IMG/VR virus record: IMGVR_UViG_3300049434_000014 | Location: 64,001-128,000 of that record | From: a virus | DNA: 64,000 bases | Strand: one strand, 5' to 3' | In this document: one piece after another, positions 23,962 to 44,526 of the stretch | Layout of the letters: every line of letters begins with the position of its first letter | How positions within the stretch are numbered: the first letter of the stretch is position 1 | Program-made: the position numbers and the translations under genes | Notes under the pieces: model-generated | What the model was told of the DNA's origin: nothing | The model's database searches: none | What the model saw: only the letters and a program-made list of their open reading frames with translations

Positions 23962-24079
23962 CGACAAGTCAGTTCTTTACGCTTCGAGCCTTCCTGACAA
24001 GTCCAATCATGTCTTTTTCAGTTCGACTCGACTATTCTTGTCCATTCACCTCGCCTCGAGGCGTTTGACTTTTTCGTCC
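23962..24079 (+). repeat. Pentamer-periodic GAC-delimited array A (about 3-4 units), putative guide-RNA array
   Basis: cgac aagtc agttc tttac gcttc gagcc ttcc tgac aagtc caatc atgtc ... gac tattc ttgtc cattc acctc gcctc gaggc. Confidence 0.8.
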
Positions 24080-24931
24080 TAAATGGGAGAATTCTGTTAT
24101 GGATCTACGTATTGGTGTCGCGGCTGTGGTTCTCGCTGTTGCAGCGCTTGTGTCTGGCGTCGCGTGGGGAAGTTCTGCGTCGACGTCTACGACTGTGTTG
24201 GCTTGTGGGGATACTCCTGGCTTCTGTCCTAATCCTCCGACGACGGCGCATGAATCGAACATGCGTGATGGGCAGATCGTCGGCGGGACTCACGATTTCT
24301 AGGAGTTAGTTGCTGGGCCTTCGGGTAGGACTTGACACTTGCTGTCTACCCGGAGGTGTGTTATGACTCTTAACATGGTCGGTGTTGTGGTTGTACTGGC
24401 TCTCGTATTTGCTTTAGTCGTCATTATGAAGCGACACCAGACTCAGCACTGTAATCACTTGCATCATCTGTCTAATGCTTTGGTCGGTCTGGTCGCTTTC
24501 ATCGATGAGCGCGTTCCGGGGGAGCTTCCCGAGGAGACGCGGAGTTTCGTCGCTGACTACACTGCGCAGTGGAGTACTGACGAGTATGTAGAGGAGCCGG
24601 TCGGGGATAAGAGTGTCTGATTCTGACTTGACTCCTATTTACGATCAGCTTTCGCAGGAGCATGAGACTCATACTGGAGTTTTCACTCCGGACGATCCGT
24701 TGGATACTTCTGTGCCTCTCCCAGTTGATCCTGTGGTCGCGGCGGCAGATATCGACCCTGTTGTGGGTCGCCCAAGCTCCGAGTAGCTCGTTAGTCATGC
24801 ATGGCTGGACGGGTATGACTAGTCATGGTCTTGTTTAGCACATCGATACTATCTGTGCTTTTCTGGCTCGCTGGTATGAGCGGTCGGTGTGCTGCGCGTC
24901 GTGATCACCAGTTCTATCTGAGGGAGACAGT

Positions 24932-25864
24932 ATGCGTAAACGACAAAGATTCGTAGTGGCGGGGGCGATTGTTGCCGTCGTGGGTGTGTTGGGCTCGTGT
25001 TCGACTGCTGATCCCTCACCGGGTCAGGTTGCGGCGCATTACAGTAATGGACCGTTTTCTTCGCAGGTGTTTCAGGACTGCGTCGCACCGGGGCAGCTGG
25101 CTTATCAGGGTGTTAGTGATGATCACTTCTACTACCCTGCTGGTCAGCGTTCGTTCAAGTTCAGTAATGATCCTGACTCGGATTATCCTCCGATTGAGGT
25201 GATGAGTAGCGATAGTCAGGTGTTGACGGTTAGTGGCACCATGGCTTTCACGTTGGACACTTCTTGTGCGCCTTGGGATGACAAGGATGCAAATGGCAAT
25301 GTCATCAAGCATTGGCCAGGCGGTTTGTTGCAGAGGTTCCACGAGACACTGGCCATTCAGGACAGCGCGTTTTCGACTTCTGGTGGAACTGAGCCCGGTC
25401 CTGGTTGGGATAAGTTCATTGGTAAGTACGTGAAAGATACCGCCGAGCGTGCGATCACCAATGAGGCTCTGAGGTTCGGTTGGTTTGCCTTGTCTAACGA
25501 TCCTGCGTCGCGTGCGCAGTGGGAGAAAGACGTTGTCACCAAGGTTCCTGATCTGGTGACGGCTCAGATGGGTGCTCCGTACCTGCATATTGACAACATT
25601 CTGTTGCAGAAGCCCGTACCTGGCCCTGGTTTGCTGGCTGGTCTTGCTTCGAAGCAGGAAGCTCAGTTGCGTTCGGATGCTGTCGATATTGACAAGGCTG
25701 CAGCTTTGAACTTCCCTGGTGGCATCAACGCGTACGCGGATTACCAGCAGAAGTTGGGTGTGCTTGCTCTGCAGCGTTCGATCGCTCGCGCTATTGATGA
25801 TGGCAAGGTGAAGGCTGTTCCGGTCCCTGCGGGTTCGCCCGTGATTGTCAGCCCAGGCGGGTAG
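24932..25864 (+). CDS. SPFH/Band-7 domain membrane-anchored protein
   Basis: N-terminal TM/lipobox-like LGSC; SSDSQVLTVSGTMAFTL; C-terminal helical segment. Confidence 0.75.
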   Translation: MRKRQRFVVAGAIVAVVGVLGSCSTADPSPGQVAAHYSNGPFSSQVFQDCVAPGQLAYQGVSDDHFYYPAGQRSFKFSNDPDSDYPPIEVMSSDSQVLTVSGTMAFTLDTSCAPWDDKDANGNVIKHWPGGLLQRFHETLAIQDSAFSTSGGTEPGPGWDKFIGKYVKDTAERAITNEALRFGWFALSNDPASRAQWEKDVVTKVPDLVTAQMGAPYLHIDNILLQKPVPGPGLLAGLASKQEAQLRSDAVDIDKAAALNFPGGINAYADYQQKLGVLALQRSIARAIDDGKVKAVPVPAGSPVIVSPGG

Positions 25865-26216
25865 GTGTCTGATGGCTAAGGGTGAGATCTTCGTTTTCAC
25901 TGCGCTTGTTCTTATGCTCGCATTGGGAATGCTGGTCTACAAGTTGTGGCAATACTTCAGTAAGATGGCGTGGGAGAGGGCGCGACGTACTGCTCCGTGG
26001 TTTTCACGATCTTCTATCAATCCTGATGGATCTGTGACGGTGTTGGTTCGTCGTGAGGCGTGGGTGGGCTGGTCGGTTGAGATGGTCGGCGAGCCTGTCG
26101 AGGTCGCAACGATCAAGGTGGCGGATCTGGATCTGGGCTTGCTTCAGGAAGCTGAGGGTCGTGCCGAGATCGTGGCTAATACCTACAACCGCACCAGTTT
26201 GCCCTAGCTGACACCC

Positions 26217-26266
26217 TGCGCAGGAAGCCTCAGTTCCTTCGGGAGCTGGGGCTTCCTGCGTTTCTA
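26217..26266 (+). terminator. Intrinsic terminator
   Basis: gcaggaagcctcagttcc ttcg ggagctggggcttcctgc followed by gtttct. Confidence 0.8.
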
Positions 26267-26357
26267 TACTTTCTTGCCTGACCTAGTTGACCTCGTAGAC
26301 CTTGCATGCTACCGTATGGGTAGTACTTGATGACGGGGATCAACCCAGGAGGTAGAC

Positions 26358-27311
26358 ATGGCAACGTCTGTACGGACCGACGAGCACCGCGAGGGTGTGC
26401 TGGTACCCGCGAACTACAGGTTTCGCGAGGTGCTGGATCTCTACGCTGGTGGACCCAAAGATGACGTGATCGCTCTGGCCAAGCAGGCAGCGGTCCCTCC
26501 GAGGTGGCTTCAGTTCGTAGAGCGTCAGCGCGCTCGGGTGAAGCAATACCAGGCTCGCGCAGTCGGCGATCGTCCTCGGTTGTCTCAGTGCAATATCTGT
26601 GGTGCGCACATTCGTTACGCGGTTGTGTGGGCATACAATCCCGAGCCGGGTGGTCACTTCGCTGGTTACATTACTACGGGTACTGACTGTGCCTCGTCCG
26701 TCAATGCTGCACTCGAGTCGGAGATTGCTTCTCAGGCTGGCGCTCTGCGTGAGTTCGTCGCTGGCATGCGTAAGCAGGCGCGGTCGGCTGCAGCGGCGCA
26801 CACGGAGCCTGCTGTGCCTGTTGAGGCGGCGTCACGGTGGTCTGCTGTGGATCGTCGTCGTCAGGCGTGGATCGCGGAGTCTAACGATCACTATCGGGTC
26901 GCGCACTTCCTGCACGCTGTGTCTGGTAACCACGCGGATCTCGGTTGCACTGGTAAATGTTTTCACTGTGACGTGACGGCTCAGTTGGTTGAGACCGGCT
27001 CGTTGTCGGAGCGTCAGGTTGAGGCTGTGCTGCGTTCTGTGCCTTCCTGGGAGGCGCATGGTCGGCTTCCTGAGCCTGCCTTCGAGATTCCTTCAGGTGA
27101 GACCACGATTACAGGCACGCTGGCTTCAGCGCGCAATGGGCACATGCTCATTAAGTGCAAGGGCTACCGTGTGTGGACGATTCCCCCGGAGGGTCTGCGG
27201 TCGGCTCAGACGGGTTCTCAGGTTCGGTTCACTGCTTATGTGGAGCCTTCCACGAAAGATCCTAAGTTTTTGATTGCTCGCGATGTTCGGGACGGAGAGG
27301 TTGTCGGTTGA
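26358..27311 (+). CDS. Hypothetical nucleic-acid-binding protein (Zn-ribbon N-terminus, OB-fold-like C-terminus)
   Basis: CNICGAHIRY...GTDC; GSLSERQ; C-terminal beta domain; GGAGG RBS. Confidence 0.6.
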   Translation: MATSVRTDEHREGVLVPANYRFREVLDLYAGGPKDDVIALAKQAAVPPRWLQFVERQRARVKQYQARAVGDRPRLSQCNICGAHIRYAVVWAYNPEPGGHFAGYITTGTDCASSVNAALESEIASQAGALREFVAGMRKQARSAAAAHTEPAVPVEAASRWSAVDRRRQAWIAESNDHYRVAHFLHAVSGNHADLGCTGKCFHCDVTAQLVETGSLSERQVEAVLRSVPSWEAHGRLPEPAFEIPSGETTITGTLASARNGHMLIKCKGYRVWTIPPEGLRSAQTGSQVRFTAYVEPSTKDPKFLIARDVRDGEVVG

Positions 27312-28219
27312 AATGGCTAGGGGTAGACGTCCCGTTCCGGAGGGCTTCGTTCGGATACTAGATCGTCGTAGCTCCGGTGCGGCGGGTGCGCACAAGGGTA
27401 GGACTGTGACGAGAAGTGCTGAGAGAAGCTCAGCTATTCGATCGAGCAGGGAGAATTAATATGTGTAAGTCGATTACTGTCGGCGAGCTTTTTGCGACCG
27501 ATAATCGGACTTTGACGGAGAAGATGGACGATCATTCGAAGCAAGATAATTTCGAGAGTGCTTTGACTGGTGTTCAGTATCAGCTTCGTCAGGCTCGGAT
27601 CGCTATGCTGGCTGCGGGAATGAAGATGCAGGATACTGATCGCCCGGAGATTGAGGTTGACGATTTCAGGTTGTACGACACTGCGGTGGAGGCAATTCAG
27701 AATCTTCAGGCTCGTATTCGTGACATTCTTGATGATTTGGATCCTAACGCTCCCATCCCGTCTGAGCGGCAGCTCCGCACGGATCAGGTCTAGTCTTCCT
27801 ACGTCGTGTTCAGAGAGGTAGTTATGCATCCGAATTCAGCATTTGCTTGGGATGATACTTCTCATCCTGCTCTTGCAGCCAAGGCGCGCGAGGCTCAGTT
27901 GGAGAAATTAGATACTCTGATGTATGTGCAGAAGAAGCTGATTGAGTCTCAGCGGGCACTGCTTGATGCTTTGTCGTCTCTGGTTGATACCAAGGTTGAG
28001 TTGTCTGCTGCTAGGAAGAAAGCGGCCAGTGAGACTCAGGGTTTCTTGACGGATTTGCAGCTGGCAACGCTGGAAGCATTCGCTTTGATTCAGCAGGGAT
28101 CGGTTTAGCGGGTACGACCAGTCGTCTTCGGACAGGGCATAGTAGAGCCTGAACAGACAGAATAAACTAGATATGGGGAGCACCGAAGAGTGGTTGTGAC
28201 TGGTCATGTCCACTCTCGG

Positions 28220-28673
28220 TGACTCGCTACGTTACACTGCAGATCGACTACTCAATTCTGTTCAGGCCCGTTCGATTCATTTGACAACCCGGCACAGGCC
28301 CTCTCGCATCCATGCGACAATGCGAGTCTTGTCTCCCCCTGGCCCATGCCGACTGTCCGTCTCGCCTCCGTATCCCATCCTTTCCGTTCTGTGCCGACGA
28401 GCCAGCTCGATCCGGGTCTCTCCCACCCACCGACTAGTCTCTGCGGATCCTCCCGGGTCAGGTGACTCTGCCGATCTAGTCCCAGCGCATCATCTCGTGT
28501 CCGACTATCCGTATCCGTGCTTGTCGTTTCCAATCGACCAGTCAGTCCCGGTCAGTTCGTGCCTTGTTCCGACAGATCGCTGCTGTTCGTTTCCCGTCAG
28601 TGCGACGGACCGAGACTGTTCGCCTCCAATCAGTTCGACTACTCGACACAAGTCACCCCAAGGCCGACGAACC
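28220..28673 (+). repeat. Pentamer-periodic GAC-delimited array B (about 13 units), putative guide-RNA array
   Basis: e.g. gac tctgc cgatc tagtc ccagc gcatc atctc gtgtc c|gac tatcc gtatc cgtgc ttgtc gtttc caatc|gac ... agatc gctgc tgttc gtttc ccgtc agtgc|gac. Confidence 0.9.
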
Positions 28674-29857
28674 GTTAGGACTAGTTATGGCACTGAGTGA
28701 GTCGGTGAAGAACCGTCTGCTGAACTGGAAGTTCGAGCAGGCGTGGCAGACCTTGTCTGAGGAGATGGGCGGGGATGCTTCGGAGGCTGAGGTTCAGACG
28801 GTGCGGGCGTTGGCGATCACGTTCGGGGATCCGGGTTGGTTTGAGGGTTCGATGGCAGACATCATCCGGGCTGTGTTGTGGTTTTTAGGAGTGACTGACG
28901 ATGATTAGTTTTCGACAGATCGATGAGTTTCTTACTCCTAAGGATCCGTTTTTCAAGCTTTTGATACCTGCTCTGCTTGCGGCTTATGTGTTTATGTTAA
29001 CTGTGGGTGCTGTTGTCGCTATCACTTTCTTTACTATCGGGATGGCTATCGTTATCACGTCTGCTGTGATGGGTAGCTTGTCGTTGGTGATTTTCTACGT
29101 GATCGATAAGGTAGTCACCAAATGACTAGGGTGTGGCGTGCTCATGGATTGCCTCACGGGCATGCGGATATTCCTAGGAAGATACGAACAGCTGATCATC
29201 GATTGTTTGAGCATTTTGATGGTAGTTTGTTTCGTGAGCTTTCTACGTCTCAGTGTAATTATAGGCACTGGGATGAGTTGGTGTTTCCTGTTTTTGAGGT
29301 CTCGGATGTTTCTCCAGAGGCGGTGTCTGCTTCTGCGGATGGTGTGCTCACGGGTGTGTGGATGTCTGGTCAGTTCTCGGACATCGACATGATTAACGAC
29401 ATCGCTGATTGGTTGTTGAAGACTAAGCTTCCTGTGTTGAACGTCAGTTTTGCTGCAGCGGTGGCGGATCGTATTCGTTACCTGCTAGAAAATGATGAGG
29501 AGACTCACCTGCTGCTAGGGAGAGAAGAGCTGTGAGTGATCACAAGATCGTGGAGTTTCTGAATTTGTGCGTGTCGGCTGATGAGGCAACCGGGTTAGGT
29601 TCGCCGTGGGAGTTTATCTTCAAGCGACGCATCATTGTCATTCATGCCCCACGTAAAGACGATAATGAGCAGTGGGTGTGTGATGCGTGTTCGTGGATGC
29701 ATCCTGAGATACGTCAGATTGTTAATGCGTACGCACCTTGCGAGCATTTGCAGTATATGTCTATGATCTATTCTAAGCGGGCTGGGTTTGATCCGGATTG
29801 GATTCATGACGTGATCGGGTTCGCTGAGCTTCCCTAATACTCCGGGTTTTCCGGATA

Positions 29858-30361
29858 TGACTACACTACTCCGATCCTTTCATGTCGTTGGCGAATCGTT
29901 CCCGTCCCGACTATTCGCCGCATGTCCCTTCGTGTCTTGCCAAGTCGACTATTCGTTTCGATCCCGGCCATTTCGTTTTGACTATTCGCATCGGATCCAG
30001 CTCCTATCGATTCGACTGATCTTGTCGACTACGCAAGTCAGTTCCGTTCTTTGCATTGCGACTTGTCGAGCCTGTCCGTGTCCGCGCGTATCGACTACCC
30101 GATCCAGTTCCGTCCTTTCCCGCTCTTTCCGACTACGCTCGTCTCATCCGGGCATGTCATCTCGACTACTCGATTCTTTCTCGTCGCTGCGGCTCTGTTC
30201 GACTACCCGGTTCGATACGGGACATCCCTGTCCGTTCTGACTACCCGTCTCCGTTCGCTTCTAGCCCAGTCCGTCTCGACAACCCATGTCGCGGCACTGC
30301 TCTTCTTTCCGTGACGACAGGCCAGTTCCAGTCTGTTCGTCTCTGTACGACATCACACATC
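29858..30361 (+). repeat. Pentamer-periodic GAC-delimited array C (about 15 units), putative guide-RNA array
   Basis: e.g. gac tacgc aagtc agttc cgttc tttgc attgc|gac ttgtc gagcc tgtcc gtgtc cgcgc gtatc|gac taccc gatcc agttc cgtcc tttcc cgctc tttcc|gac; boundary consensus CGACTA. Confidence 0.92.
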
Positions 30362-31464: not shown

Positions 31465-31535
31465 GGCTTCATAGACTAATGGCAGGTCACTAGCCTCTCA
31501 AGCTAGGAGTACGGGTTCGACCCCCGTTGGAGCTA
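31465..31535 (+). tRNA. tRNA-Glu (CTC)
   Basis: GGCTTCA/TGGAGCT acceptor; ctagc-CTCTCAA-gctag anticodon arm; GGTTCGA T-loop. Confidence 0.85.
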
Positions 31536-31547
31536 CGTTTGTATTAA

Positions 31548-31617
31548 CGTTCCGTGGTGTAGGGATAGCACGCCGGTCACGGGACCGGTAGTCCACGTTT
31601 AACTCGTGGCGGAACGA
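31548..31617 (+). tRNA. tRNA-like gene with abnormal anticodon loop (6 or 8 nt; identity undetermined)
   Basis: CGTTCCG/CGGAACG acceptor, D arm, ccgg-tcacggga-ccgg, T arm ccacg-tttaact-cgtgg. Confidence 0.6.
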
Positions 31618-31664
31618 CGCACGGCCTAGGATCGCCTCTGCTTCGGGCATGCGCCTAGGTCTCT

Positions 31665-31738
31665 CGGGATGTAGGGAAGCCAGGTATCCCACCTGTTTTG
31701 GGTACAGGAAGCCGCAGGTTCGAATCCTGCCGTCCCGA
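31665..31738 (+). tRNA. tRNA-Pro (TGG)
   Basis: CGGGATG acceptor; cctgt-TTTGGGT-acagg; GGTTCGAATCC. Confidence 0.9.
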
Positions 31739-31740
31739 CT

Positions 31741-31816
31741 GGATGGATGTAGCTCAATGATAGAGCCCTTGGATTAACGTCTAAGGAGACGTGGGTTTGA
31801 TTCCCGCCACCATCCT
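31741..31816 (+). tRNA. tRNA-like gene with abnormal anticodon loop (cttgg-attaacgt-ctaag) and bulged acceptor stem
   Basis: TAGCTCAATGATAGAGC D arm; GGGTTTGATTCCC T arm. Confidence 0.6.
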
Positions 31817-31820
31817 TCAT

Positions 31821-31895
31821 GGTGAATGTAGCTCAAATGGCAGAGCGCCTGATTGTGGGTCAGGTCGTTGCGGGTTCGATTCCCGTCGTTCACCC
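31821..31895 (+). tRNA. tRNA-His (GTG)
   Basis: Encoded G-1; cctga-TTGTGGG-tcagg; GGTTCGATTCC. Confidence 0.9.
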
Positions 31896-31978
31896 CGAGA
31901 GGGACGGAGTCCAAAGCACATATGGTACCTGTTGCTAGGACTTAAACGACAATGTTATGTGTGTCCGTCCTTCTCCTA

Positions 31979-32050
31979 TCCTCGTTAGCTCAAAGGCAGA
32001 GCGTGCGATTGTTAATCGCAGGGTTGTTGGTTCAAGTCCAGCACGGGGAG
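31979..32050 (+). tRNA. tRNA-Asn (GTT)
   Basis: TCCTCGT/ACGGGGA acceptor; tgcga-TTGTTAA-tcgca. Confidence 0.9.
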
Positions 32051-32061
32051 CGTTTGTTTAT

Positions 32062-32132
32062 GGGTGTGACAGGATTGTGACAGTGGAGCCCGCTGAGCGG
32101 CACTGTTGAGGGTTCGAGTCCCTCCACTTCCA
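32062..32132 (+). ncRNA. tRNA-like small RNA with intact T arm but non-canonical remainder
   Basis: gaggg-TTCGAGT-ccctc T arm; acagtg/cactgt stem enclosing a ccgc-tga-gcgg hairpin. Confidence 0.45.
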
Positions 32133-32137
32133 CGAGA

Positions 32138-32490
32138 TGGGCAGTCGTTGTCGCTTGCTTCTTTAGCTACGGTAATCACCCCGATGGAGCGAGTGACCCT
32201 TCACGCGAGGTCGGTTGGAGGCTGACAACCTGACGACAATTGGTGGGCTTGTCACTCACCTACCTATCTCTGCTCGAACCACTTTGTTGGCGGGTTCGCT
32301 ACCCGTACGGAGTGCCGGTTTGATCCAGATAGGCTCTAAGCCGAGGTGTGGGTGCGACCCCGCTAGCCCTCGGTGCCCCGAGGATCCCTTGCCAGAGAGG
32401 AACCGGATACGGATCTGGTGTTCGAGTAGTCGAGATGGACAGGGTCTGTGTGAATAACGCAGCTTCAACGACACTGTGGTGTGCCTGTCC
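32138..32490 (+). ncRNA. Candidate large structured ncRNA (about 350 nt) within the tRNA cluster (GOLLD-like?)
   Basis: No credible ORF; 5' gtcgttg pairs with 3' caacgac; many internal stems; T-loop-like gggtgcgacccc; sits between tRNA genes. Confidence 0.5.
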
Positions 32491-32498
32491 TTCTCCAA

Positions 32499-32569
32499 GG
32501 TGGAATGACCGAGCGGCTAGGTAGCGGTCTGCAAAACCGCGCACGCGGGTTCGATTCCCGCTTCCGCCT
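32499..32569 (+). tRNA. tRNA-Cys (GCA)
   Basis: GGTGGAA/TTCCGCC acceptor; gcggt-CTGCAAA-accgc. Confidence 0.9.
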
Positions 32570-32587
32570 CGTTGGGTAGGATATGTC

Positions 32588-32983
32588 ATGACTGAAACAC
32601 TGGTAACGGCGCTTCTGAGGAACAAGCCAGGGAAGTGGGCGCACGTCCTTCACGAGGACTCGGTAGCTCCTAACATTCCCTCCCATCATCTGATGGATCT
32701 TGCGTGTGACGTGAATCTGGGCAATGATGAGTGGGCTCCTGCGGGTGCGTTTTCGGCAGTGATTCGGGATGCTTCGGATCTGTATGTTCGATTCAATTCA
32801 GATAAACCTGATGTCACTGAAGTTGTGGTGTCGTACCGTGCGTCGTTGAAGTACGGTAATTGCTTTGATTGCGGCCTTCCGGGTGCGCAGTATCTGTTGG
32901 TCGACGTGGGTGTGATGAACTGTCCGCTGTGTGCGGCTGAGGCTGCGGTAGCGGGCGCTCAGGTGACTAGGTTGGAGCGTTAG
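32588..32983 (+). CDS. Hypothetical protein with C-terminal Zn finger
   Basis: CFDC...CPLC; GGGTAGGA upstream. Confidence 0.6.
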   Translation: MTETLVTALLRNKPGKWAHVLHEDSVAPNIPSHHLMDLACDVNLGNDEWAPAGAFSAVIRDASDLYVRFNSDKPDVTEVVVSYRASLKYGNCFDCGLPGAQYLLVDVGVMNCPLCAAEAAVAGAQVTRLER

Positions 32984-32992
32984 TTTGTTCGT

Positions 32993-33065
32993 GGGTCGTT
33001 AGTTTAACTGGTAAAACAGGAGCCTCCAAAACTCCACGATGTGGGTTCGATTCCTGCACGGCCCG
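32993..33065 (+). tRNA. tRNA-Trp (CCA)
   Basis: GGGTCGT/ACGGCCC acceptor; ggagc-CTCCAAA-actcc; GGTTCGATTCC. Confidence 0.85.
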
Positions 33066-33534
33066 CTTATGAATGGGTAGGATGTGACATGTGGCAACGT
33101 GAGGATATGGCGAGGTTCCTTATTTGGCTTGACGATCAGGGTTTGCTTAATCCTCCCGTTGAGATCGAGATTGATGAGATCCTCGATTTTTATGAGGATT
33201 ATACAGGCGTTTTTACCTCAAGGAGTAGAGATGGCTGAGTCTCAGATTTTCGAAGAGCACACTGTTCGATACCCCGAGTGCGATAAGCTGCACCGTGTAT
33301 CTGGCGATGTCTCGACGCTGCATGAGTTTCTGGAGTGGCTGGCTGAGAATGGCCTGCAGGTGTGCAGCCTTGAGGAGACTGGGAAGTTTGACTGTGATGG
33401 TCCGGTCGAGCATTACTTCCCAATCCGCGAGCAGCGAGAAGCTTTGGTGCAGCGGTTCTTTTCGATTGATCCAGCCAAGCTGGAGAGCGAGCGCAGGGCT
33501 ATGCTTGCTGCACTGCAGAGTTGATTGAAGACAT

Positions 33535-33616
33535 TACCCCGTCGTCTATTTTGGCAGGACGCTGTGCGGTGGTCGCTCCCCGTGCGGAGGTGCACGTTCG
33601 ACTCGTGCCGGGGTAG
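33535..33616 (+). tRNA. tRNA-like gene (Gln-like body) with extended anticodon arm and about 10-nt loop
   Basis: TACCCCG/CGGGGTA acceptor, TGGCAGGAC D arm, gcacg-TTCGACT-cgtgc T arm; anticodon arm ctgtgcgg-tggtcgctcc-ccgtgcgg. Confidence 0.6.
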
Positions 33617-33731
33617 CTGGAGGATAGATGTTAGCTAACGTTGTTGGTACGTTACTTGGGTTGATGCTTTTTCTGTTGGTGATCGTGTCACTTGTGATGC
33701 TAGTTCTGTCGTTTGCTCGTGATTGATCCCT

Positions 33732-33804
33732 GCACCGGTAGCTCAGGGGATAGAGTGTCTGATTACGGATCAGAATGTCGCAGGTTCGATTCCTGCCCGG
33801 TGCG
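33732..33804 (+). tRNA. tRNA-Arg (ACG)
   Basis: GCACCGG/CCGGTGC acceptor; tctga-TTACGGA-tcaga. Confidence 0.92.
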
Positions 33805-33828
33805 CTCCCTAAGTTGTGGAGGCAAGTC

Positions 33829-35060: not shown

Positions 35061-35091
35061 ACTGGCCCAGATCCCCGAGGTCTGGGCCAGT
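35061..35091 (+). terminator. Strong hairpin/terminator
   Basis: actggcccagatc...ggtctgggccagt. Confidence 0.7.
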
Positions 35092-35116
35092 GGTGTGTCT
35101 AGGGTAGAACTAGCAC

Positions 35117-36600: not shown

Positions 36601-37284
36601 ATGCCTAACAATCCAAAGACTAAATACTTCTTTGATACTGAGTTCCTTGAGGATGGCAATACGATTGATCTGATCTCGATCGGTATTGTATGTGAGGATG
36701 GACGTAAGTATTACGCAGTCAATCGTGATGCTGACTGGGTTCGTATCCTTCAGCATGAGTTCTTAATGAAAGAAGTAGTTCCACATTTGCCTTTGTTACC
36801 TGAGTCAGAGTGGTTTAATAATGGTACGTATGCCACCATCCTTAATGAAGATGACCCTACGGTGAAGGCATATGCTCAGATTGCAGATGAGGTATACAAG
36901 TTCTTGTTAGATGATGGTCGCGGTACGAGTCGCAATAATCGTGAGTTGTGGGCGTGGTTTGCTTCTTATGATTTTGTTGCTTTGTGTCAGCTTTACGGAA
37001 CGATGATAGGACTACCTGATGGCATTCCTATGTTCATTCGTGACCTGAAGCAGGAGCATGAGCGGTTGGGTAGTCCCTCACGGCCGTCTCAGGTTAAAGG
37101 GACTGCGCATAATGCATTGTTTGATGCTGAGTATGACTATCATCTCTTTAACTTCTTACGTCAGTACGAGGCTCGTCGGCTGTCTGAGATGTCTCAACAG
37201 GTTTTGTGTTGTTCGTTTGATGTCGGCGAGGCTCACGAGTTGTTAGATGCTGTGTCTGATTGGCGTCCGAATAAGAGGGCATGA
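36601..37284 (+). CDS. 3'-5' exoribonuclease, RNase AS (Rv2179c)-like
   Basis: YFFDTEFLEDGNTIDLISIGIVCEDGR.YYAV, ELWAWFASYD.V.LCQL.G.M, HNAL.DA. Confidence 0.88.
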   Translation: MPNNPKTKYFFDTEFLEDGNTIDLISIGIVCEDGRKYYAVNRDADWVRILQHEFLMKEVVPHLPLLPESEWFNNGTYATILNEDDPTVKAYAQIADEVYKFLLDDGRGTSRNNRELWAWFASYDFVALCQLYGTMIGLPDGIPMFIRDLKQEHERLGSPSRPSQVKGTAHNALFDAEYDYHLFNFLRQYEARRLSEMSQQVLCCSFDVGEAHELLDAVSDWRPNKRA

Positions 37285-39245: not shown

Positions 39246-39421
39246 TGGATCGAGAGTTGTTAACTGAGCTGTTGGGCGAGGGTTTCCATACAGCATTTCG
39301 CAAAGCTACTGACTGCGACCAGGCACCAGTCATCTACAGGTTAATTGAAGAGATGCCTGAAGATGACTGGGCCAATGTTCTAGACTTTGTTGCGGATTGT
39401 TTACCTACCGAGAAGTTCAAA

Positions 39422-39560
39422 GACTAGAAGTCGCGATTGCGCCAGGCGGATCGGTTGTCCCAGATTCGAGACATGTCAAACCAGGCTCGCCCAGTCTCAG
39501 CTCGCCAGACACCGATATGATATCCAGAGAACAAACCGAGACCAAGCAGCACGAAACCTC
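39422..39560 (+). repeat. Degenerate pentamer-periodic array D
   Basis: gagac atgtc aaacc aggc tcgcc cagtc tcagc tcgcc ... gagac caagc agcac gaaac; C/A-rich intergenic segment. Confidence 0.4.
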
Positions 39561-40348: not shown

Positions 40349-40912
40349 ATGAGTGAACCTGTGCTTGATACACGTGATTACAATGCTGAGATGAATGAGC
40401 TTATTTCAGAGAAGATTCCTGCTGATGGGGATTTCATTCCTTCGCTGGCTGCGTGGAGCATCGTCTCAGCTCTCACCGAGACTGATCCTGAGCTTCTCGA
40501 CGGTTGGCTGCGTTTGCACGCGAAGTCGTTTCTTACGGAGTTGATGCGTGCTCAGCTTCGTTCTCATCGTGCTCGGGTTCGGTCTAGTGCGAAGGCGACG
40601 GCGTTTTCGTCTGCTGCTAAGCGCTTTGAGAAAAACGGTGACCTCGCCGAGCTGGGCGGGTGGATGAAGATTCGGTATGTAGTCGATGATCAGAGTACGC
40701 AGCGTTGTCTTGGCGATATGGATCGTAATGATCTGAATTTCGTTGCTTCACGGTATAGTCGGACGGCTCAGACTCTGTTGCTCGAGGAGGCGTTTCATCG
40801 CGCGCTAGCATCGCGGGTGGGTAGTCTGAAGGTCAGTGAGGTTTTCACTGAGGAGCAGATTAGCGCGATGTATCGTAATCTGAGTGGCAATACGCATACT
40901 GCTACTGCCTGA
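40349..40912 (+). CDS. Hypothetical protein directly upstream of array E (candidate partner of the Cas7-like system)
   Basis: Its TGA stop is the first TGAC delimiter of array E. Confidence 0.75.
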   Translation: MSEPVLDTRDYNAEMNELISEKIPADGDFIPSLAAWSIVSALTETDPELLDGWLRLHAKSFLTELMRAQLRSHRARVRSSAKATAFSSAAKRFEKNGDLAELGGWMKIRYVVDDQSTQRCLGDMDRNDLNFVASRYSRTAQTLLLEEAFHRALASRVGSLKVSEVFTEEQISAMYRNLSGNTHTATA

Positions 40913-41242
40913 CTTACCAAGACCAGTCACGGCTCATCCGTTCGATACCGTTCCGACATGTCTAGCCTCATCCCGTCAAGTCTTGCCATTGCCGACACGT
41001 CTAAGCACGTCTATTCACGTCCGACATTCCAAGGCCAGTCGCGTCGCGTTGGGCCATATCGCTTCCTTTCCGACTACGCACTTCTGCCCATAACTATTCA
41101 CGGCGACTTCCCGTATCAGGCCAAGTCGAGCCGTTTCGACTACACACTTCTCGCCGCGCCTAGTCGGGACCGACTTCACAAGCCGGATCGTGACAGGTCA
41201 GTTCGAGACCGACTGGGCTATCCGAATCGTTTCTCATCCGAC
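40910..41242 (+). repeat. Pentamer-periodic GAC-delimited array E (9 units)
   Basis: tgac ttacc aagac cagtc acggc tcatc cgttc gatac cgttc|cgac atgtc tagcc tcatc ccgtc aagtc ttgcc attgc|cgac acgtc taagc acgtc tattc acgtc|cgac... Confidence 0.92.
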
Positions 41243-41659
41243 AATGTCAGGAGTGTCTAGTGACTATCTCTGCTCAAGAGATTCTTAACTTGCCGATGCA
41301 GTCTAACGATGCGCAGGCAGCTACAGTTGGAGAATACTTGGTTGCACTTGTTAGAGAAGTGTGGAGATTAAATGAGAATTTTAGCGGTAAGAGACCGTTT
41401 GGGAACAGTGGATGGCATTACGAGCTTTACGCACCGTTGGTGAGAGCAGGTTTAGTTGACGGGCTCACTAATGAGGATGGAGAGATTGAAGTTACTGATG
41501 GACGCAGGGCTGATGCGTTGATTGATTTGGCCATCTTGGGGCTCTGGAAGCCCAGCGCGGAGAGCACGCAATAGTCACGGATCGCAACCACCTCAGCTCC
41601 CATCCGTTATCTGGGTGCTGAGGTGGTTTTGCGTTGTCCCCTATTTTTGAGGAGAGACT

Positions 41660-42094
41660 GTGCTTGCTTACCGTAGGACGGTGCTCGCGGTGGTGAGTAC
41701 TGCGACGCTTGGTGTGTCTTCTCTGCTGGCCGCTCCTGCCTTCGCTGATGACCCATCGCTGCCTGGTGTGCCCAATCCCCCGTCGTGCACGAACCCGCTG
41801 CCGCTGCGGGGCAGTGAGGTCCCGATCTGTGTGACGGTCAATAACCCTCCCGACAATGAGGGTGGCGTGAAGGCTCGCGTTCGGGTCGGAGACGTCTTGT
41901 GTGTGAAGGTCGACGCTCTTACCGAGCGTAAGACTGCTGACGCTCGCGTGATTCTGCCGTGCCCGATTCACTATGTTCCTGTGCCAGTTCCGGTGGAGGT
42001 GACTCCCGAGCCTGCTCCTGTCGAGACTCCTGAGCCCGCTCCTGTTGCACAGGCTCCTGAGATTGTACAGGCTCATTTGCCTGTTACGAATTAA
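41660..42094 (+). CDS. Secreted Pro-rich protein
   Basis: Signal peptide ending AAPAFA; four Cys; PEPAPV repeats. Confidence 0.7.
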   Translation: MLAYRRTVLAVVSTATLGVSSLLAAPAFADDPSLPGVPNPPSCTNPLPLRGSEVPICVTVNNPPDNEGGVKARVRVGDVLCVKVDALTERKTADARVILPCPIHYVPVPVPVEVTPEPAPVETPEPAPVAQAPEIVQAHLPVTN

Positions 42095-42108
42095 TTCGTT
42101 TTCCACTG

Positions 42109-42146
42109 AAAGGCCCGTCCCTTTGCGCTAAGAGGGACGGGCCTTT
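42109..42146 (+). terminator. Terminator hairpin
   Basis: aaaggcccgtccct...agggacgggccttt. Confidence 0.8.
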
Positions 42147-42227
42147 CGCCTGGGTAGTACTCGGTATGGGATTCCGGTCTGTGGATACCCCATGTCTCGA
42201 TGAAAAATACATCCAGGAGGAATACTC

Positions 42228-42986
42228 GTGACGGTTTCTACTTCGGCTCCTGTCAGTGTGTTTGCAAAGTACCGTGATGTCACGTGGCCTTATAGGTATG
42301 AGGGCACTCTGCACATCGATACCATTGCTGGAGGCATTCCTTCTGACGAGAAGGTTGCTGAGGCATGGTTACGTACGAAGTTGGAGAACAAAGACGACCT
42401 CATTCGTGAGGCCGTTGCTGAGACGATGGCCGCTCGCGGTGTCGGTAAGGAAGAGGCGGCACAGATCGTCGCTTCGATGAAGCACTTCACTGGTTTTAAG
42501 CGTGACAGCAATGGGCTATACATCGAAGGTCGTCAGCTGAAAGCGGCGATCAAGGAAGCGGCGATGATTGCTGTCGCCGCTGAGCGGATTCCCCTGCGCG
42601 GGTGGGGTGTTACCTCGAAGTACCTTAAGGGTTTCGTCGCGGAACACATCATGGTTGTCGATGACATCTTGTACTTGAAGGTGGACGGCACTCCTGCAAA
42701 GGAAGCTACTGGAATCACTCAGCAGTTCGTTCACACCCAGTACGGTTCGGCTCCGCACTACAAGGAGTTCGTGTCCGGTGCTACCATTGATTTCACGGTG
42801 ATTACGGACTTCTTCTTCACCGAGGAGCATTGGATGCACATCTGGGCTACGGGTGAGCAGGAAGGGATCGGTGCCTCGCGCTCTGGCGGGTTCGGTCGCT
42901 ACGTGGTTACTCGGTGGAATTTGGTGACTTCCCCACCAAAGAAGAAGGCTCCTGCCAAGGAGAAGGAAGCGGCTGCAGTTAGGTAG
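42228..42986 (+). CDS. Stand-alone Cas7/RAMP-like RNA-binding protein
   Basis: RAMP-like layout: N-terminal strand YEGTLHIDTIAGG, GLYIEGRQLKAAIKEAA (IPGSSLKG-equivalent), E.V..ATIDFTV, terminal Gly-rich loop GIGASRSGGFGRY; immediately followed by array F. Confidence 0.8.
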   Translation: MTVSTSAPVSVFAKYRDVTWPYRYEGTLHIDTIAGGIPSDEKVAEAWLRTKLENKDDLIREAVAETMAARGVGKEEAAQIVASMKHFTGFKRDSNGLYIEGRQLKAAIKEAAMIAVAAERIPLRGWGVTSKYLKGFVAEHIMVVDDILYLKVDGTPAKEATGITQQFVHTQYGSAPHYKEFVSGATIDFTVITDFFFTEEHWMHIWATGEQEGIGASRSGGFGRYVVTRWNLVTSPPKKKAPAKEKEAAAVR

Positions 42987-43017
42987 TGGTCTGGCGGCGC
43001 GTCTGGGTACGATGGCA

Positions 43018-43317
43018 GAGACAAGCCAAGCCGCATCCAGACGCGCCACCGCGCTTCGACTATTCGTGTCAGATCTATCCATCTCCTTCGACCAGCCGTG
43101 TCGCGATCATGTCGCTTCCTAGTCCTTTCGACCTGTCGCTACGTTGCGCTTCTTGGCATATCCACACCGACCATGCGCGCCGCGACCTTACAAATCCTCT
43201 CGCCCTGACGAGTCTCCACGCGGCTCTACAATACTCATCATTCTGACAAGTCTTCACGCGGCTCTACAATACTCATCATTCTGACTAGCCAAACCGGTAC
43301 ATACCATTTCGCACGAC
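43018..43317 (+). repeat. Pentamer-periodic GAC-delimited array F (8 units), directly downstream of the Cas7-like gene
   Basis: gac aagcc aagcc gcatc cagac gcgcc accgc gcttc|gac tattc gtgtc agatc tatcc atctc cttc|gac ... includes a duplicated 38-nt unit. Confidence 0.92.
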
Positions 43318-43326
43318 TGAGGACTA

Positions 43327-44448
43327 ATGTCTACTGAGCCTTGGACTTTACGATACCGACCACGCAAGTTTTCTGATGTTACTGGTCAGAAGGCGGTTCG
43401 GTTGGTGCTGCAGCGAATGGTCGTCACGGGTGACGTCCGCTCAGCTTTGCTGTTTCATGGTTCACACGGTTCAGGTAAGACTTCCATGGCACGGATACTT
43501 GCTGCCGCTTTGAATTGCGAAGCTGAGGATCCCGCTGCTCGCCCGTGCGGTGTGTGTGCGATTTGCGATTCGACAGCGCATGGCCGGTCTGCTGATGTCA
43601 CGGAAATCGATGCTGCATCGTCCGGGCTCGCTGCGGATATGCGCGCGTTGCGCGAGACGGTGCGTTTCGCTGCTCAGGCTCGCTATCGTGTGGTGATCCT
43701 CGATGAGTGTCACGCTATGTCGCCTACGGGCTTTCAGACTTTGTTGAAGACTTTAGAGGAGCCTCCTGCCAACACGGTGATCATTCTCGTGACTACTGTC
43801 CTCGACAAGGTTCCGGACACGATCGTGTCTCGGTGTTTGTCGTTGGAGTTTCGTCGGTTGACGGAAGAGCAGATCGCTGGTCGACTGGCTCAGATCTCTG
43901 AGGCTGAGGGCCTTGAGCTGGCCCCTGCGCTTGCCAGGTCGGTTGCTGCCCGCTCGAGGGGGATCGCCCGTGACGCTGTCTCTCTGCTTGAGCAATGTGC
44001 TCTTGTGCGTGTACGGACTCCTGAGCAGCTGGCGGTTTTACTAGGCGACGATGACCATGGGATCGCGATCCTGCGTGCGCTGGTCGGTCCTCCTGGTCAT
44101 ATGTCGCCAGGAGCCAATCACCCCTCAGATTTTTCTGTGGCATTCGGGTGTATTGAGAGCGCTCTGGCCACCTTGCCCTCACCGGGTGAGGTGGTGGCCG
44201 CGCTCGTGCGGACGCTGAAGCGGTTGCTGATTTTGACCTCTGGCGGGGATGGATCTTTCATGCATCCTCCTAGTACTGCGGGCGAAGTGGCTCTAGCTGG
44301 GCTTTTGGACTCAGCACGGTGTGTTACCGCGATGAGAGTAGTTTGGGAGTATTATTCTAAAGTCGCACCGGTTGCTGATGCTTATGCAGCTATGGATCTT
44401 TTGGTAACGCTTTTGAGTCAGGCTCTTAAGTCGTCTTCTCGTACGTAG
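43327..44448 (+). CDS. dnaX: DNA polymerase III gamma/tau-like clamp-loader ATPase
   Basis: RYRPRKFSDVTGQ, GSHGSGKTS, PCGVCAIC, EIDAAS, ILDECH, LLKTLEEPP, SRC. Confidence 0.93.
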   Translation: MSTEPWTLRYRPRKFSDVTGQKAVRLVLQRMVVTGDVRSALLFHGSHGSGKTSMARILAAALNCEAEDPAARPCGVCAICDSTAHGRSADVTEIDAASSGLAADMRALRETVRFAAQARYRVVILDECHAMSPTGFQTLLKTLEEPPANTVIILVTTVLDKVPDTIVSRCLSLEFRRLTEEQIAGRLAQISEAEGLELAPALARSVAARSRGIARDAVSLLEQCALVRVRTPEQLAVLLGDDDHGIAILRALVGPPGHMSPGANHPSDFSVAFGCIESALATLPSPGEVVAALVRTLKRLLILTSGGDGSFMHPPSTAGEVALAGLLDSARCVTAMRVVWEYYSKVAPVADAYAAMDLLVTLLSQALKSSSRT

Positions 44449-44449
44449 T

Positions 44450-44526
44450 CGACTAATCCCTATCACTTCGCTACTACTCTGATCGTCTCCGACGTTTCTT
44501 TGGCGTGTCGAACATTGCTGTGTGAC
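44450..44526 (+). repeat. Mini pentamer-periodic array G (about 2 units)
   Basis: cgac taatc cctatc acttc gctac tactc tgatc gtctc cgac gtttc tttggc gtgtc. Confidence 0.7.

What the first reader, a model, noticed from the sequence alone, without database searches (positions are those of the whole stretch)
23962..44526. Seven dispersed arrays share one grammar, about 50 mostly unique units over 20 kb
The same code occurs at 23962-24079, 28220-28673, 29858-30361, 39422-39560 (degenerate), 40910-41242, 43018-43317 and 44450-44526. All are intergenic, on the transcribed strand, and C-rich against a G/T-rich background. The units share almost no sequence except the C phase, so repeat and CRISPR finders would miss them. 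A conserved phase with diverse variable positions is what a programmable guide repertoire should look like (inference).
Basis: seen in the sequence. Interest (0 to 1): 0.92.

Follow-up and report, generated by a model that had tools for sequence, protein, structure and literature searches.

The report
Phage VIPR-type guide arrays, C-phased
The five-base rhythm is real and marks arrays of short guide-RNA-like units that belong to a lone Cas7-like protein of this phage, so this is a new-looking variant (C-based letters, GAC start mark, about 200 units) of the VIPR RNA-guided systems first described in 2026.

Summary
C recurs every 5 bases in the claimed arrays (pooled lag-5 z = +14.9). Five arrays are strong (z 5-10.5); 39422-39560 and 44450-44526 are marginal (z 2.4 and 2.1).

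The grammar is GAC-WA followed by 5-8 pentamers NN-K-T-C, so unit length is 5k+3 (28, 33, 38, 43 nt). The same grammar fills a further 5.5 kb outside the window.

The arrays flank a 252-aa gene (42228-42986) whose model matches only Csm3/Cas7 RAMP subunits (Z 10.1). A conserved 187-aa partner gene lies at 40349-40912.

The module partner gene - array - RAMP gene recurs widely:
- 49 of 57 testable viral contigs have a C-rich tract ending at the RAMP gene.
- All 11 actinomycete genome loci have one too.
- Arrays cannot be aligned between relatives whose flanking genes are 80-92% identical.

This matches VIPR systems (bioRxiv 10.64898/2026.04.26.720920): a phage RAMP, an accessory gene, and tandem pentamer guide RNAs. 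A distant homologue (L066) carries canonical GGC-NN arrays.

Three things differ here: the fixed letters are YC/YCC on the gene strand, units are contiguous and GAC-initiated, and there is no structured tail.

Guide function and the transcribed strand are not shown. Target searches were inconclusive, with one 18/18 wobble-skipping hit to a rival phage's terminase. This scan has already noted VIPR-like loci in at least 177 other genomes.

The parts
23962..24079 (+). Array A1: 4 GAC-delimited segments, 2 clean units, in the gap before the 67-aa ORF at 24099
   Evidence: Lag-5/10 z 5.1. Sequence read. Unit count.
23949..23956 (+). -10-like motif GGTATGAT, 13 nt before A1; candidate + strand promoter
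   Evidence: The motif GGTAnGA[CT] occurs 110 times on + and 22 times on - genome-wide, and sits at the starts of A1 and A6. Its promoter function is inferred, not shown.
28220..28673 (+). Array A2: 14 segments, 11 clean units
   Evidence: z 7.5.
29858..30361 (+). Array A3: 14 segments, 7 clean units; the most regular array
   Evidence: z 10.5.
39422..39560 (+). A4: degenerate, marginal stretch with no clean unit
   Evidence: z 2.4, 19 of 1000 shuffles.
40349..40912 (+). Conserved 187-aa partner gene (vap-like), just upstream of array A5
   Evidence: Homologues in 43 related loci, mostly lying just upstream of the array that precedes the RAMP gene (coordinates). Model pLDDT 90.7, helical with a beta hairpin. 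No Pfam, PHROG or PDB match.
40910..41242 (+). Array A5: 10 segments, 7 clean units, between the partner gene and the small ORFs before the RAMP gene
   Evidence: z 8.2. The syntenic array in a related phage is at L001:8867-9120.
42228..42986 (+). Lone Cas7/Csm3-like RAMP gene (Vipr-like), 252 aa, protein P0001
   Evidence: AF2 model pLDDT 76.7. Foldseek: 121 PDB hits at E<1e-3, top hits Csm3 and type VII Cas7, best E 9e-7. VIA-align without Foldseek: Z 10.1, and 37 of the top 40 chains are RAMPs. G-loop invariant in alignment A1. Colinear hhalign to the SUSP1 Vipr candidate, E 0.082.
43006..43013 (+). -10-like motif GGTACGAT, 12 nt before A6
43018..43317 (+). Array A6: 9 segments, 5 clean units, directly after the RAMP gene. 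It contains a 38-nt duplication with a sigma-70-like -35/-10 pair.
   Evidence: z 6.6.
44450..44526 (+). A7: short, marginal stretch with no clean unit
   Evidence: z 2.1, 32 of 1000 shuffles.

Best explanation
The arrays are the guide-RNA genes of a VIPR-type system carried by this 153-kb phage.

Components and proposed action:
- The RAMP protein encoded at 42228-42986 is a Vipr homologue. It is expected to polymerise along the array transcript, one register step per 5 nt.
- Each protomer would grip the fixed letters (K-T-C here, Y-C-C in high-GC relatives) and expose the two free letters between them.
- Each unit starts with a special first pentamer, GAC-WA, whose C is in phase with the following Cs. 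It ends on a fixed triplet, so unit length is 5k+3 with k = 5-9 free dinucleotides.
- By analogy with published VIPR, the exposed dinucleotides would read double-stranded DNA of rival phages or prophages with one skipped base per step (the codon wobble position). Binding would silence the target.
- The 187-aa gene at 40349-40912 is the conserved accessory partner.

Shown here:
- the periodic grammar;
- its link to the RAMP and partner genes in many phages;
- its hypervariability;
- the RAMP fold.

Inferred:
- transcription of the arrays, and from which strand (+ strand favoured, about 65%);
- filament formation;
- processing at GAC;
- DNA targeting.
For: Grammar:
-.

RAMP fold and G-loop:
-.
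- A weak padloc hit to a Csx10 RAMP at the G-loop, E 0.032.

Module conservation:
- 49 of 57 testable viral loci have a C-rich tract (C 0.39-0.52, G 0.15-0.21, 200-1900 nt) ending at the RAMP gene start.
- All 11 actinomycete genome loci have one as well.
- Pooled GAC-GAC spacings of 20-60 nt, by residue mod 5: 0:120, 1:50, 2:60, 3:245, 4:151.
- The logo anchored on 918 GAC sites shows C at +7, +12, +17 and so on, 81-83% over the first three, falling to 69% by +32.
- The partner gene is present in 43 loci, mostly just upstream of the array.

Turnover:
- Flanks are 80-92% identical while the arrays between them give no BLAST alignment (L025/L029, L015/L019, L028/L031).

Link to VIPR:
- Published VIPR has a phage RAMP, a vap gene and 9-16 YNNGG pentamers. 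Variants NNNGG, YNNNG and NNNNG, and staggered arrays, are also described.
- Filament structures show protomers sequestering each fixed triplet.
- Non-canonical fixed triplets are already reported: GAC/NN, CAC/NN, WGT/NN.
- The distant homologue L066 (25% identity) has canonical GGC-NN pentamers on the gene strand directly upstream of its RAMP gene. L065 (27% identity, 40% GC) has the GAC plus NNNCC grammar.
- The SUSP1 locus shows G-phased tracts on the gene strand.
- hhalign to its 195-aa protein aligns both hallmark motifs.

Strand:
- The -10-like motif GGTAnGA[CT] is + biased (110:22). It sits 12-13 nt before A1 and A6 and at the start of the second outside block. No - strand copy flanks any window array, A1-A7.

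RNA structure:
- As RNA the arrays are unstructured: MFE per nt -0.26 to -0.29, against -0.37 for the genome.

One target-like hit:
- A 9-pentamer unit of L013/L076 matches L017:11149-11174 at 18 of 18 specified bases.
- These bases are codon positions 1-2 of VRGPHGLGK, the Walker A motif of a terminase large subunit (phrog_2, E 3e-39). Every skipped base falls on the wobble position.
- There is no match within 3 mismatches in the unit's own contig.
Against: - Neither transcription nor its strand is shown.
- The fixed letters are not GGY on the gene strand. Read on the opposite strand they would be GGNNN/GANNN plus a 3' ..TWGTCG, which resembles the published NNNGG form with a tail. An antisense reading therefore remains open.
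- There is no conserved structured 3' tail, and no Rfam family at gathering score, hammerhead included, lies in the arrays.
- Sequence similarity to a proven Vipr is weak (hhalign E 0.082). There is no Pfam, PHROG or PDB-sequence hit.
- Target searches gave no significant excess:
  - gapped rules against 2.2 Mb of related phage DNA gave 3 perfect hits in 250 units, against 1 per 250 in shuffles, with no wobble enrichment by automated phase;
  - three 18-nt patterns from this phage found 1-3 sites each in IMG/VR, none convincing;
  - the single 18/18 hit has an estimated chance of about 0.01-0.03 and is one event.
- The homo-oligomer prediction could not be run.
Confidence: 0.78

Rival explanations
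1. The RAMP protein does bind the arrays, but they are not guides. On this reading the long C-phased leaders are assembly, storage or autoregulatory tracts. One version is like the unstructured leader that T4 gp32 binds on its own mRNA. Another is a sponge that titrates the protein. The free positions would simply drift.
For: - The array abuts the RAMP start codon, and its last unit carries the ribosome-binding site.
- Free positions are near uniform in composition and turn over fast.
- There is no significant target excess.
- Units are short (5-9 pentamers), compared with 9-16 in published vrRNAs.
Against: - Arrays also occur far from the RAMP gene (A1-A3 and the 5.5-kb block). Autoregulation does not need that.
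- Quantised unit lengths and a defined start pentamer suggest discrete products.
- Homologous systems are proven guides.
- One 18/18 wobble-skipping hit to a terminase.
Confidence: 0.1
2. The arrays are Rho-utilisation or termination tracts. C-rich, G-poor, unstructured RNA with a YC dinucleotide every 5 nt would load host Rho and separate transcription units. The RAMP gene would be a coincidental neighbour.
For: - YC at positions 4-5 of nearly every pentamer.
- C > G and low predicted structure.
- The arrays lie between genes of a genome transcribed from one strand.
- Rho's primary site binds YC dinucleotides (established knowledge; the literature listed was not read in detail).
Against: - Rho needs no strict 5-nt register, no GAC reset and no 5k+3 unit lengths.
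- The tracts co-occur specifically with the RAMP and partner genes in 49 of 57 loci.
- A 5.5-kb terminator is implausible.
- L066 has a G-rich array in the same position.
Confidence: 0.05
3. The arrays act as double-stranded DNA: iterated binding sites for a phage DNA-binding protein. Examples would be the 187-aa partner acting at a replication origin, a partition site or a packaging site. The near-palindromic GAC-WA-GTC anchors would be the operators.
For: - The anchor consensus GAC(T/A)A(G)TC is nearly palindromic.
- The module sits among replication and recombination genes: clamp loader, RecT, Rad52, RusA.
- The big block lies near the assembly junction of the genome.
Against: - The strand asymmetry is absolute. 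The C-rich strand is always the gene strand, which double-stranded sites do not require.
- Position +5 of the anchor is G in only 42% of units.
- A RAMP is an RNA-binding fold.
- The sequences between anchors keep only a single-strand-type phase.
Confidence: 0.05

Closest known systems
VIPR systems (Vipr RAMP + vap + vrRNA). bioRxiv 10.64898/2026.04.26.720920; structures in 10.64898/2026.04.26.720927; biology in 10.64898/2026.10.15.759431.
   Same: - Phage- or prophage-encoded lone RAMP with a G-loop.
- A two-gene module with an accessory gene.
- Long flanking intergenic arrays of tandem pentamers that combine fixed letters with two hypervariable letters.
- Several arrays per locus.
- No cas genes and no CRISPR repeats.
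- A distant homologue (L066) has canonical GGC-NN arrays.
   Different: - Fixed letters are K-T-C or Y-C-C on the gene strand instead of G-G-Y.
- Units have 5-9 pentamers rather than 9-16.
- Units are contiguous and each opens with GAC-WA.
- There is no structured invariant 3' tail and no ribozyme.
- The protein is 252 aa with a helical insert, rather than about 20 kDa.
- The partner has no recognisable DNA-binding fold.
- The repertoire is very large (about 200 units, including a 5.5-kb block) and dispersed over at least 9 sites.
- The hosts are actinomycetes, which the held texts do not mention.
Non-canonical VIPR arrays (GAC/NN, CAC/NN, WGT/NN, TGH/NN) and 'staggered' vrRNA arrays. bioRxiv 10.64898/2026.10.21.760802 and 10.64898/2026.04.26.720920, fig. 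S18.
   Same: - A period-5 array next to a Vipr-like fold, with a fixed triplet other than GGY.
- Back-to-back units in which the end of one marks the start of the next.
   Different: - Those clusters repeat one motif about 10 times.
- Here two motif classes are combined: one GAC pentamer as unit opener, then YC-type pentamers.
- I could not see the figures or tables, so overlap with this clade cannot be excluded.
Type III / type VII CRISPR-Cas backbone (Csm3, Cmr4, Cas7) with crRNA
   Same: - Best structural matches of the protein (Z 8-10).
- A filament-forming RAMP that measures RNA in fixed steps. Mature type III crRNAs differ by 6-nt steps (own knowledge); units here differ by 5-nt steps.
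   Different: - No repeat-spacer array and no Cas10, Cas5, Cas6 or Cas11.
- The period is 5, not 6.
- The guide letters are interrupted by fixed letters.
TRAP-binding (G/U)AG-NN repeats of the Bacillus trp leader
   Same: A 5-nt RNA repeat read by successive subunits of an oligomer (own knowledge).
   Different: - There are 11 repeats bound by a ring, and it works as an attenuator.
- No RAMP is involved, there is no hypervariable repertoire, and it is not phage-borne.

Membership tests
VIPR | Lone RAMP protein (RRM core, glycine-rich loop, thumb) outside any CRISPR-cas locus | tested here: met
   The fold matches only RAMPs: Foldseek E 9e-7, VIA Z 10.1 over 159 residues. The GhGxxxxxGhG loop is invariant. 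The neighbouring ORFs scanned show no cas gene apart from the RAMP's own weak Csx10 hit, and tandem-repeat scans of the window and a self-BLAST of the genome find no repeat-spacer array. The thumb was not examined separately.
VIPR | Protein homologous to a proven Vipr | tested here: inconclusive
   hhalign of alignment A1 against the 195-aa SUSP1 protein gives E 0.082 over 129 colinear columns, with both hallmark motifs aligned. The homologue L066 (25% identity, tblastn E 4e-6 among candidate stretches) has canonical GGC-NN arrays.
VIPR | Tandem pentanucleotide repeats with fixed letters alternating with hypervariable NN, in intergenic DNA flanking the gene | tested here: met
   Logo N N K T C here and N N c C C in relatives. 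Arrays cannot be aligned between close relatives. They flank the gene on both sides.
VIPR | Canonical GGY/NN (YNNGG) motif on the transcribed strand | tested here: not met
   The gene strand carries YC/YCC, not GGY. The opposite strand would read GGNNN/GANNN. Non-canonical motifs are accepted members in the literature.
VIPR | Conserved accessory gene (vap) beside vipr | tested here: met
   The 187-aa partner is present in 43 loci, mostly just upstream of the array. Whether it equals one of vap1-6 could not be tested, and no fold match was found.
VIPR | Invariant structured 3' tail after the repeat tract | tested here: not met
   Units are contiguous. Only a 5-9-nt GAC-WA-nTC mark is conserved. 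Folding energy is no lower than in shuffles and there is no Rfam match. This resembles the published 'staggered' arrays.
VIPR | vrRNAs expressed and bound by Vipr | not testable with these tools
VIPR | NN letters match DNA targets with a 1-nt skip, mostly in rival mobile elements | tested here: inconclusive
   There is no significant excess in a 2.2-Mb local library. One 18/18 wobble-phased hit falls on a terminase Walker A motif. IMG/VR scans of three window units were unconvincing.
VIPR | Encoded by phages or proviruses | tested here: met
   A 153-kb phage contig, IMG/VR contigs, and prophage early regions in Streptomyces and Nocardiopsis.
CRISPR-Cas | Repeat-spacer array with conserved direct repeats and adjacent cas operon | tested here: not met
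   There are no direct repeats. Units share only the phase and the GAC mark. Among the neighbouring ORFs scanned, no cas gene other than the RAMP.

The most novel reading that the evidence does not exclude
The arrays are transcribed in the sense direction, so this actinomycete-phage clade uses a truly different VIPR alphabet. The RNA would have C-based fixed triplets (KUC/YCC) and a GAC opener that lets one long transcript be measured into about 200 back-to-back 28-48-nt guides without ribozymes, tails or terminators. That would be the largest VIPR repertoire seen, aimed at conserved motifs (such as terminase Walker A) of rival phages.
Probability: 0.45. Interest if true: 0.68.

Novelty: new variant of a known kind. 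Interest (0 to 1): 0.55.

Why it matters
VIPR is a months-old class of RNA-guided DNA recognition that uses a gapped code.

A clade that writes the fixed letters with C instead of G would show how flexible the protein-RNA register is. So would its packing of units end to end behind a 3-letter opener, with some 200 units in one phage. The clade would also offer a natural example of tail-less, ribozyme-less guide processing.

The finding extends VIPR to phages and prophages of Streptomyces and other actinomycetes, where phage-phage conflict is little studied. The family is large: more than 900 homologues in the protein search.

For annotation, 7.5 kb (5%) of this genome that looks like junk or spurious ORFs gets an explanation.

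Tried and rejected
Readings considered and set aside:
- **Coding reading of the arrays.** ORFs span them (for example 28206-28700), but C shows no period-3 signal; the lag 3, 6 and 9 ratios are 0.82-0.84. Rejected.
- **Structured RNA.** Folding energy is no lower than in shuffles; only A6 is lower (z -2.3), where the 38-nt duplication lies. Rfam at gathering score finds only tRNAs.
- **Intrinsic terminators or sigma-70 promoters enriched in the arrays.** Neither exceeds shuffles.

Similarity searches that found nothing:
- Megablast of the window against isolated phages: no match.
- tblastn of the RAMP against 50,697 isolated phages: one weak hit, Microcystis phage Mae-JY09, not followed up.
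- Sequence-level family searches of the RAMP (Pfam, PHROGs, PDB sequences): nothing.
- Partner protein fold: no match; the best Z was 4.5.
- A conserved gene downstream of the RAMP gene: none; the most widespread is in 8 loci.

Target searches:
- Contiguous self-targets in the phage genome: best 21 of 28, the same as grammar-preserving shuffles.
- Gapped target rules (free positions p1p2, p2p3 or p1p2p3; skip 0-3): no rule stands out in the local library.
- My automated codon-phase call is unreliable in high-GC DNA because of long spurious antisense ORFs; it mis-phased the terminase hit.
- One 10-pentamer unit of L074 against 401 genomes of the same class gave 20 hits with 2 mismatches, against 0 for the reversed control. 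Eighteen of the 20 are one orthologous site, so it counts as about 3 events and is not significant.

Tools and runs that failed:
- No relatives are drawn for a virus record.

Literature:
- The supplements of the VIPR paper are not held. I therefore could not check whether this clade is among its 664 loci or which type it would be.

Full report
**Setting.** The window is bases 64,001-128,000 of a single 153,455-bp contig. The contig ends overlap by 127 nt, so it is a circular assembly. All credible genes are on the + strand. That strand is G/T-rich: G 0.30, T 0.27, C 0.23, A 0.19. Gene content is phage-like, with a clamp-loader ATPase, an amidase and an Rv2179c-like exoribonuclease and eight tRNA genes. 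No isolated phage is close.

**The observation.** C recurs with period 5 in the claimed stretches.
- Pooled observed/expected is 1.62 at lag 5, 1.45 at lag 10 and 1.29 at lag 15. Against Markov-1 shuffles, z is +14.9, +10.1 and +6.7.
- Five arrays are individually strong, z 5.1 to 10.5, with 0 of 1000 shuffles reaching them.
- 39422-39560 and 44450-44526 are marginal (z 2.4 and 2.1) and contain no clean unit.
- Windows elsewhere in the genome average 0.98 ± 0.15 on the same measure.

**The grammar.**
- A phase-tracking parse gives the pentamer N-N-(G/T)-T-C, with C 91% and T 53%.
- The phase holds for about 30-40 nt and then jumps. The jumps fall at GAC.
- Aligned on GAC, the logo is c-GAC-(T/A)-A-n-T-C followed by n-n-n-T-C, with C at +7, +12, +17, +22 and +27 (92% falling to 74%).
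- The C of GAC (+2) is in phase with these Cs. GAC-WA is therefore a special first pentamer, and each unit ends on a fixed triplet.
- This explains why GAC-to-GAC distances are 5k+3: 28, 33, 38, 43.
- The window has 58 such segments, 32 of them with at least 5 clean pentamers.
- As RNA the arrays are less structured than the rest of the genome and no more structured than shuffles.

**More of it outside the window.** The same grammar fills genome 145,400-149,680 and 150,200-150,990, giving 141 further segments. About 7.5 kb of this genome, roughly 5%, is written in this code.

**The neighbour that explains it.** I tested this.
- Sequence libraries give nothing except a weak padloc hit to a Csx10 RAMP at the C-terminal loop.
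- An AlphaFold model built on 32 homologues has pLDDT 76.7 and pTM 0.71.
- By Foldseek its listed matches are all chains of type III (Csm/Cmr) or type VII effector complexes, the best being Csm3/Cas7 backbone subunits. There are 121 PDB hits below 1e-3; the best is E 9e-7.
- An aligner that does not depend on Foldseek gives Z 10.1 to Csm3, and 37 of the top 40 chains are RAMPs.
- The C-terminal loop G-I-G-A-S-R-S-G-G-F-G fits GhGxxxxxGhG. All its glycines and the R-S pair are invariant in the family.
- The family has more than 900 members at around 60% identity, in metagenomes and in Streptomyces, Nocardiopsis and Actinomadura genomes.

**A conserved three-part module.**
- I fetched 65 viral loci, 11 loci from named actinomycete genomes and two prophage contexts.
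- In 49 of 57 testable viral loci, and in all 11 genome loci, a strongly C-rich tract ends at the RAMP start codon on the gene strand. These tracts have C 0.39-0.57, G 0.15-0.21 and lengths of 160-2000 nt.
- Pooled GAC-GAC spacings in these tracts peak at 28, 33, 38, 43, 48 and 53. Counts by residue mod 5 are 245 for 3, 151 for 4, 120 for 0, 50 for 1 and 60 for 2.
- A logo from 918 anchors repeats the architecture, with C-C in place of T-C.
- The 187-aa ORF at 40349-40912 has homologues in 43 loci, mostly just upstream of the array. The module is therefore partner gene, array, RAMP gene.
- The partner model is confident (pLDDT 90.7), helical with one beta hairpin, and matches no known fold.
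- No downstream gene is conserved.
- In bacterial genomes the module sits in prophage early regions beside integrase, HTH regulators, RecT/Rad52 and RusA.

**Hypervariability.** In pairs of phages whose flanking genes are 80-92% identical at the DNA level, the array between them gives no BLAST alignment. Only the last unit, which carries the ribosome-binding site, is conserved. The free letters turn over far faster than synonymous sites while the phase and the GAC marks stay.

**What is known.**
- A literature search led to the 2026 description of VIPR systems. These consist of a phage-encoded ancestral RAMP (Vipr), an accessory gene (vap) and vrRNAs made of 9-16 tandem YNNGG pentamers followed by a tail. 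The fixed GGY is held by the protein. The hypervariable NN letters read double-stranded DNA with one skipped base per step, usually the codon wobble position. Targets are rival phages, satellites and prophages.
- Variants NNNGG, YNNNG and NNNNG, 'staggered' back-to-back arrays and ribozyme-separated arrays are mentioned.
- Structures show Vipr protomers forming a helical filament that sequesters each fixed triplet.
- A later preprint reports non-canonical fixed triplets such as GAC/NN and CAC/NN beside Vipr-like folds.
- None of the held texts mentions Streptomyces or actinomycetes. The supplements are not held.
- The present scan has itself logged VIPR-like loci 236 times in at least 177 genomes, some with other alphabets such as GA-NNN, GY-NNN and AYA-NN.

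**Membership.**
- I located the SUSP1 locus in KT454805.2. Two genes lie on the - strand at 28031-29061, flanked by gaps whose gene-strand sequence is G-phased (lag-5 1.72 and 1.64) and reads as YNNGG.
- Profile alignment of the family to the 195-aa SUSP1 protein is weak (E 0.082) but colinear over 129 columns. It aligns both the G-x-x-x-x-G-x-x-x-x-A-x-I-K motif and the G-loop F-G-R-(Y/F).
- Among distant homologues fetched with the family profile, L066 (25% identity) has canonical GGC-NN pentamers on the gene strand directly upstream of its RAMP gene. L065 (27% identity, 40% GC) has GAC anchors with NNNCC pentamers.
- The protein family therefore spans both alphabets in the same syntenic position. 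I file the locus as VIPR-type with a non-canonical alphabet. The canonical motif and the structured tail are not met (see the membership table).

**Which strand is the RNA?** This is open.
- For the sense strand:
  - The array sits where the sense-strand G-type array sits in L066 and SUSP1.
  - It runs into the ribosome-binding site of the RAMP gene.
  - The -10-like motif GGTAnGA[CT] is 110:22 biased to the + strand. It lies 12-13 nt before A1 and A6 and at the start of the second outside block. No - strand copy flanks any window array, A1-A7 (the motif was a lead from note e1-5864256).
- For the antisense strand:
  - Read backwards, the units are (G-R-N-N-N)n ending in T-W-G-T-C-G. That resembles the published NNNGG form with a 3' mark.
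  - A long untranslated C-rich sense RNA would be an ideal Rho substrate.
- I put sense at about 65%.
- The predicted double-stranded target is the same for either strand, because the 1-nt skip pattern is symmetric.

**Targets.**
- Contiguous matches of units to the phage's own genome do not exceed grammar-preserving shuffles.
- I tested gapped rules against 2.2 Mb of related phage DNA with the arrays masked. The 1-nt skip rule gives 3 perfect best hits in 250 units, against 1 per 250 in order-shuffled controls and 0-1 under other skips. This is not significant.
- One hit is notable:
  - A 9-pentamer unit shared by L013 and L076 matches L017:11149-11174 at all 18 specified bases.
  - On the coding strand these are positions 1-2 of the codons for V-R-G-P-H-G-L-G-K, the Walker A motif of a terminase large subunit (phrog_2, E 3e-39). 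Every skipped base is a wobble base.
  - The unit's own contig has no match within 3 mismatches. The host MAG holds one 2-mismatch site that, read on the opposite strand, encodes a related V-R-G-x-H-G-L-G motif.
  - I estimate the chance of such an 18/18 hit in this library at roughly 0.01-0.03. It is a single event.
- A 10-pentamer unit of L074 found 20 sites with 2 mismatches in 401 genomes of the same class, against 0 for the reversed control. Eighteen are one orthologous gene, so the result is not significant.
- Three 18-base patterns from this phage's own units found 1-3 IMG/VR sites each, none convincing.
- The host of this phage is unknown, which limits the test.

**Verdict.**
- It is not a new category. 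It is a variant of VIPR with a C-type alphabet on the gene strand, a GAC opener, contiguous tail-less units and an unusually large, dispersed repertoire, in a clade of actinomycete phages that the held literature does not mention.
- RNA evidence, strand, processing and targets remain to be shown.

Noticed in passing
window 31465-33804: Cluster of eight tRNA genes on the + strand, lying between arrays A3 and A4 (Rfam).
   Followed up: no
window 43205-43285: A 38-nt unit duplicated in tandem inside array A6 (95% identity). Each copy carries a sigma-70-like CTGACA-16-TACAAT pair, which may be the promoter of the clamp-loader gene at 43327.
   Followed up: partly
genome 147,967-148,020 (outside the window; L089:3568-3621): Four tandem copies of a 14-nt unit (TTTAATACGATTCT) interrupt the 5.5-kb array block.
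   Followed up: no
window 28125-28160, and genome 145,280-145,310: A shared motif of about 25 nt (GGCATAG..AGCC..ACAGAC) lies roughly 60-100 nt upstream of both array A2 and the big outside block. It may be a common regulatory or processing signal. Seen by eye.
   Followed up: no
contig ends (genome 1-127 = 153,329-153,455): The contig ends are identical over 127 nt, so this is a circular assembly of about 153.3 kb, either circularly permuted or terminally redundant.
   Followed up: no
L017:10990-12465: The terminase large subunit of another VIPR-carrying phage has a Walker A motif spelled 18/18 by a guide-like unit of phage L013/L076, with all skips at wobble positions.
   Followed up: partly
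L085-L088 and 14 further genomes: A unit of the Streptosporangium prophage L074 matches 16 of 20 specified bases in one conserved chromosomal gene of 18 large actinomycete genomes. The peptide is roughly V-L-G-A-T-F-K-P-D, reminiscent of nucleotide-sugar dehydrogenases. This is probably chance amplified by orthology, and the gene was not identified.
   Followed up: partly
window 36601-37284 and 43327-44448: An Rv2179c-like 3'-5' exoribonuclease gene and a DnaX-like clamp-loader ATPase lie next to the VIPR-type module. The exoribonuclease could trim guide 3' ends; this is speculation.
   Followed up: no
L071 (Escherichia phage phiSUSP1, KT454805.2) 27119-29511: The published SUSP1 VIPR locus could be pinpointed from sequence alone. 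Two - strand genes are flanked by G-phased YNNGG tracts, each followed by a hairpin tail.
   Followed up: yes
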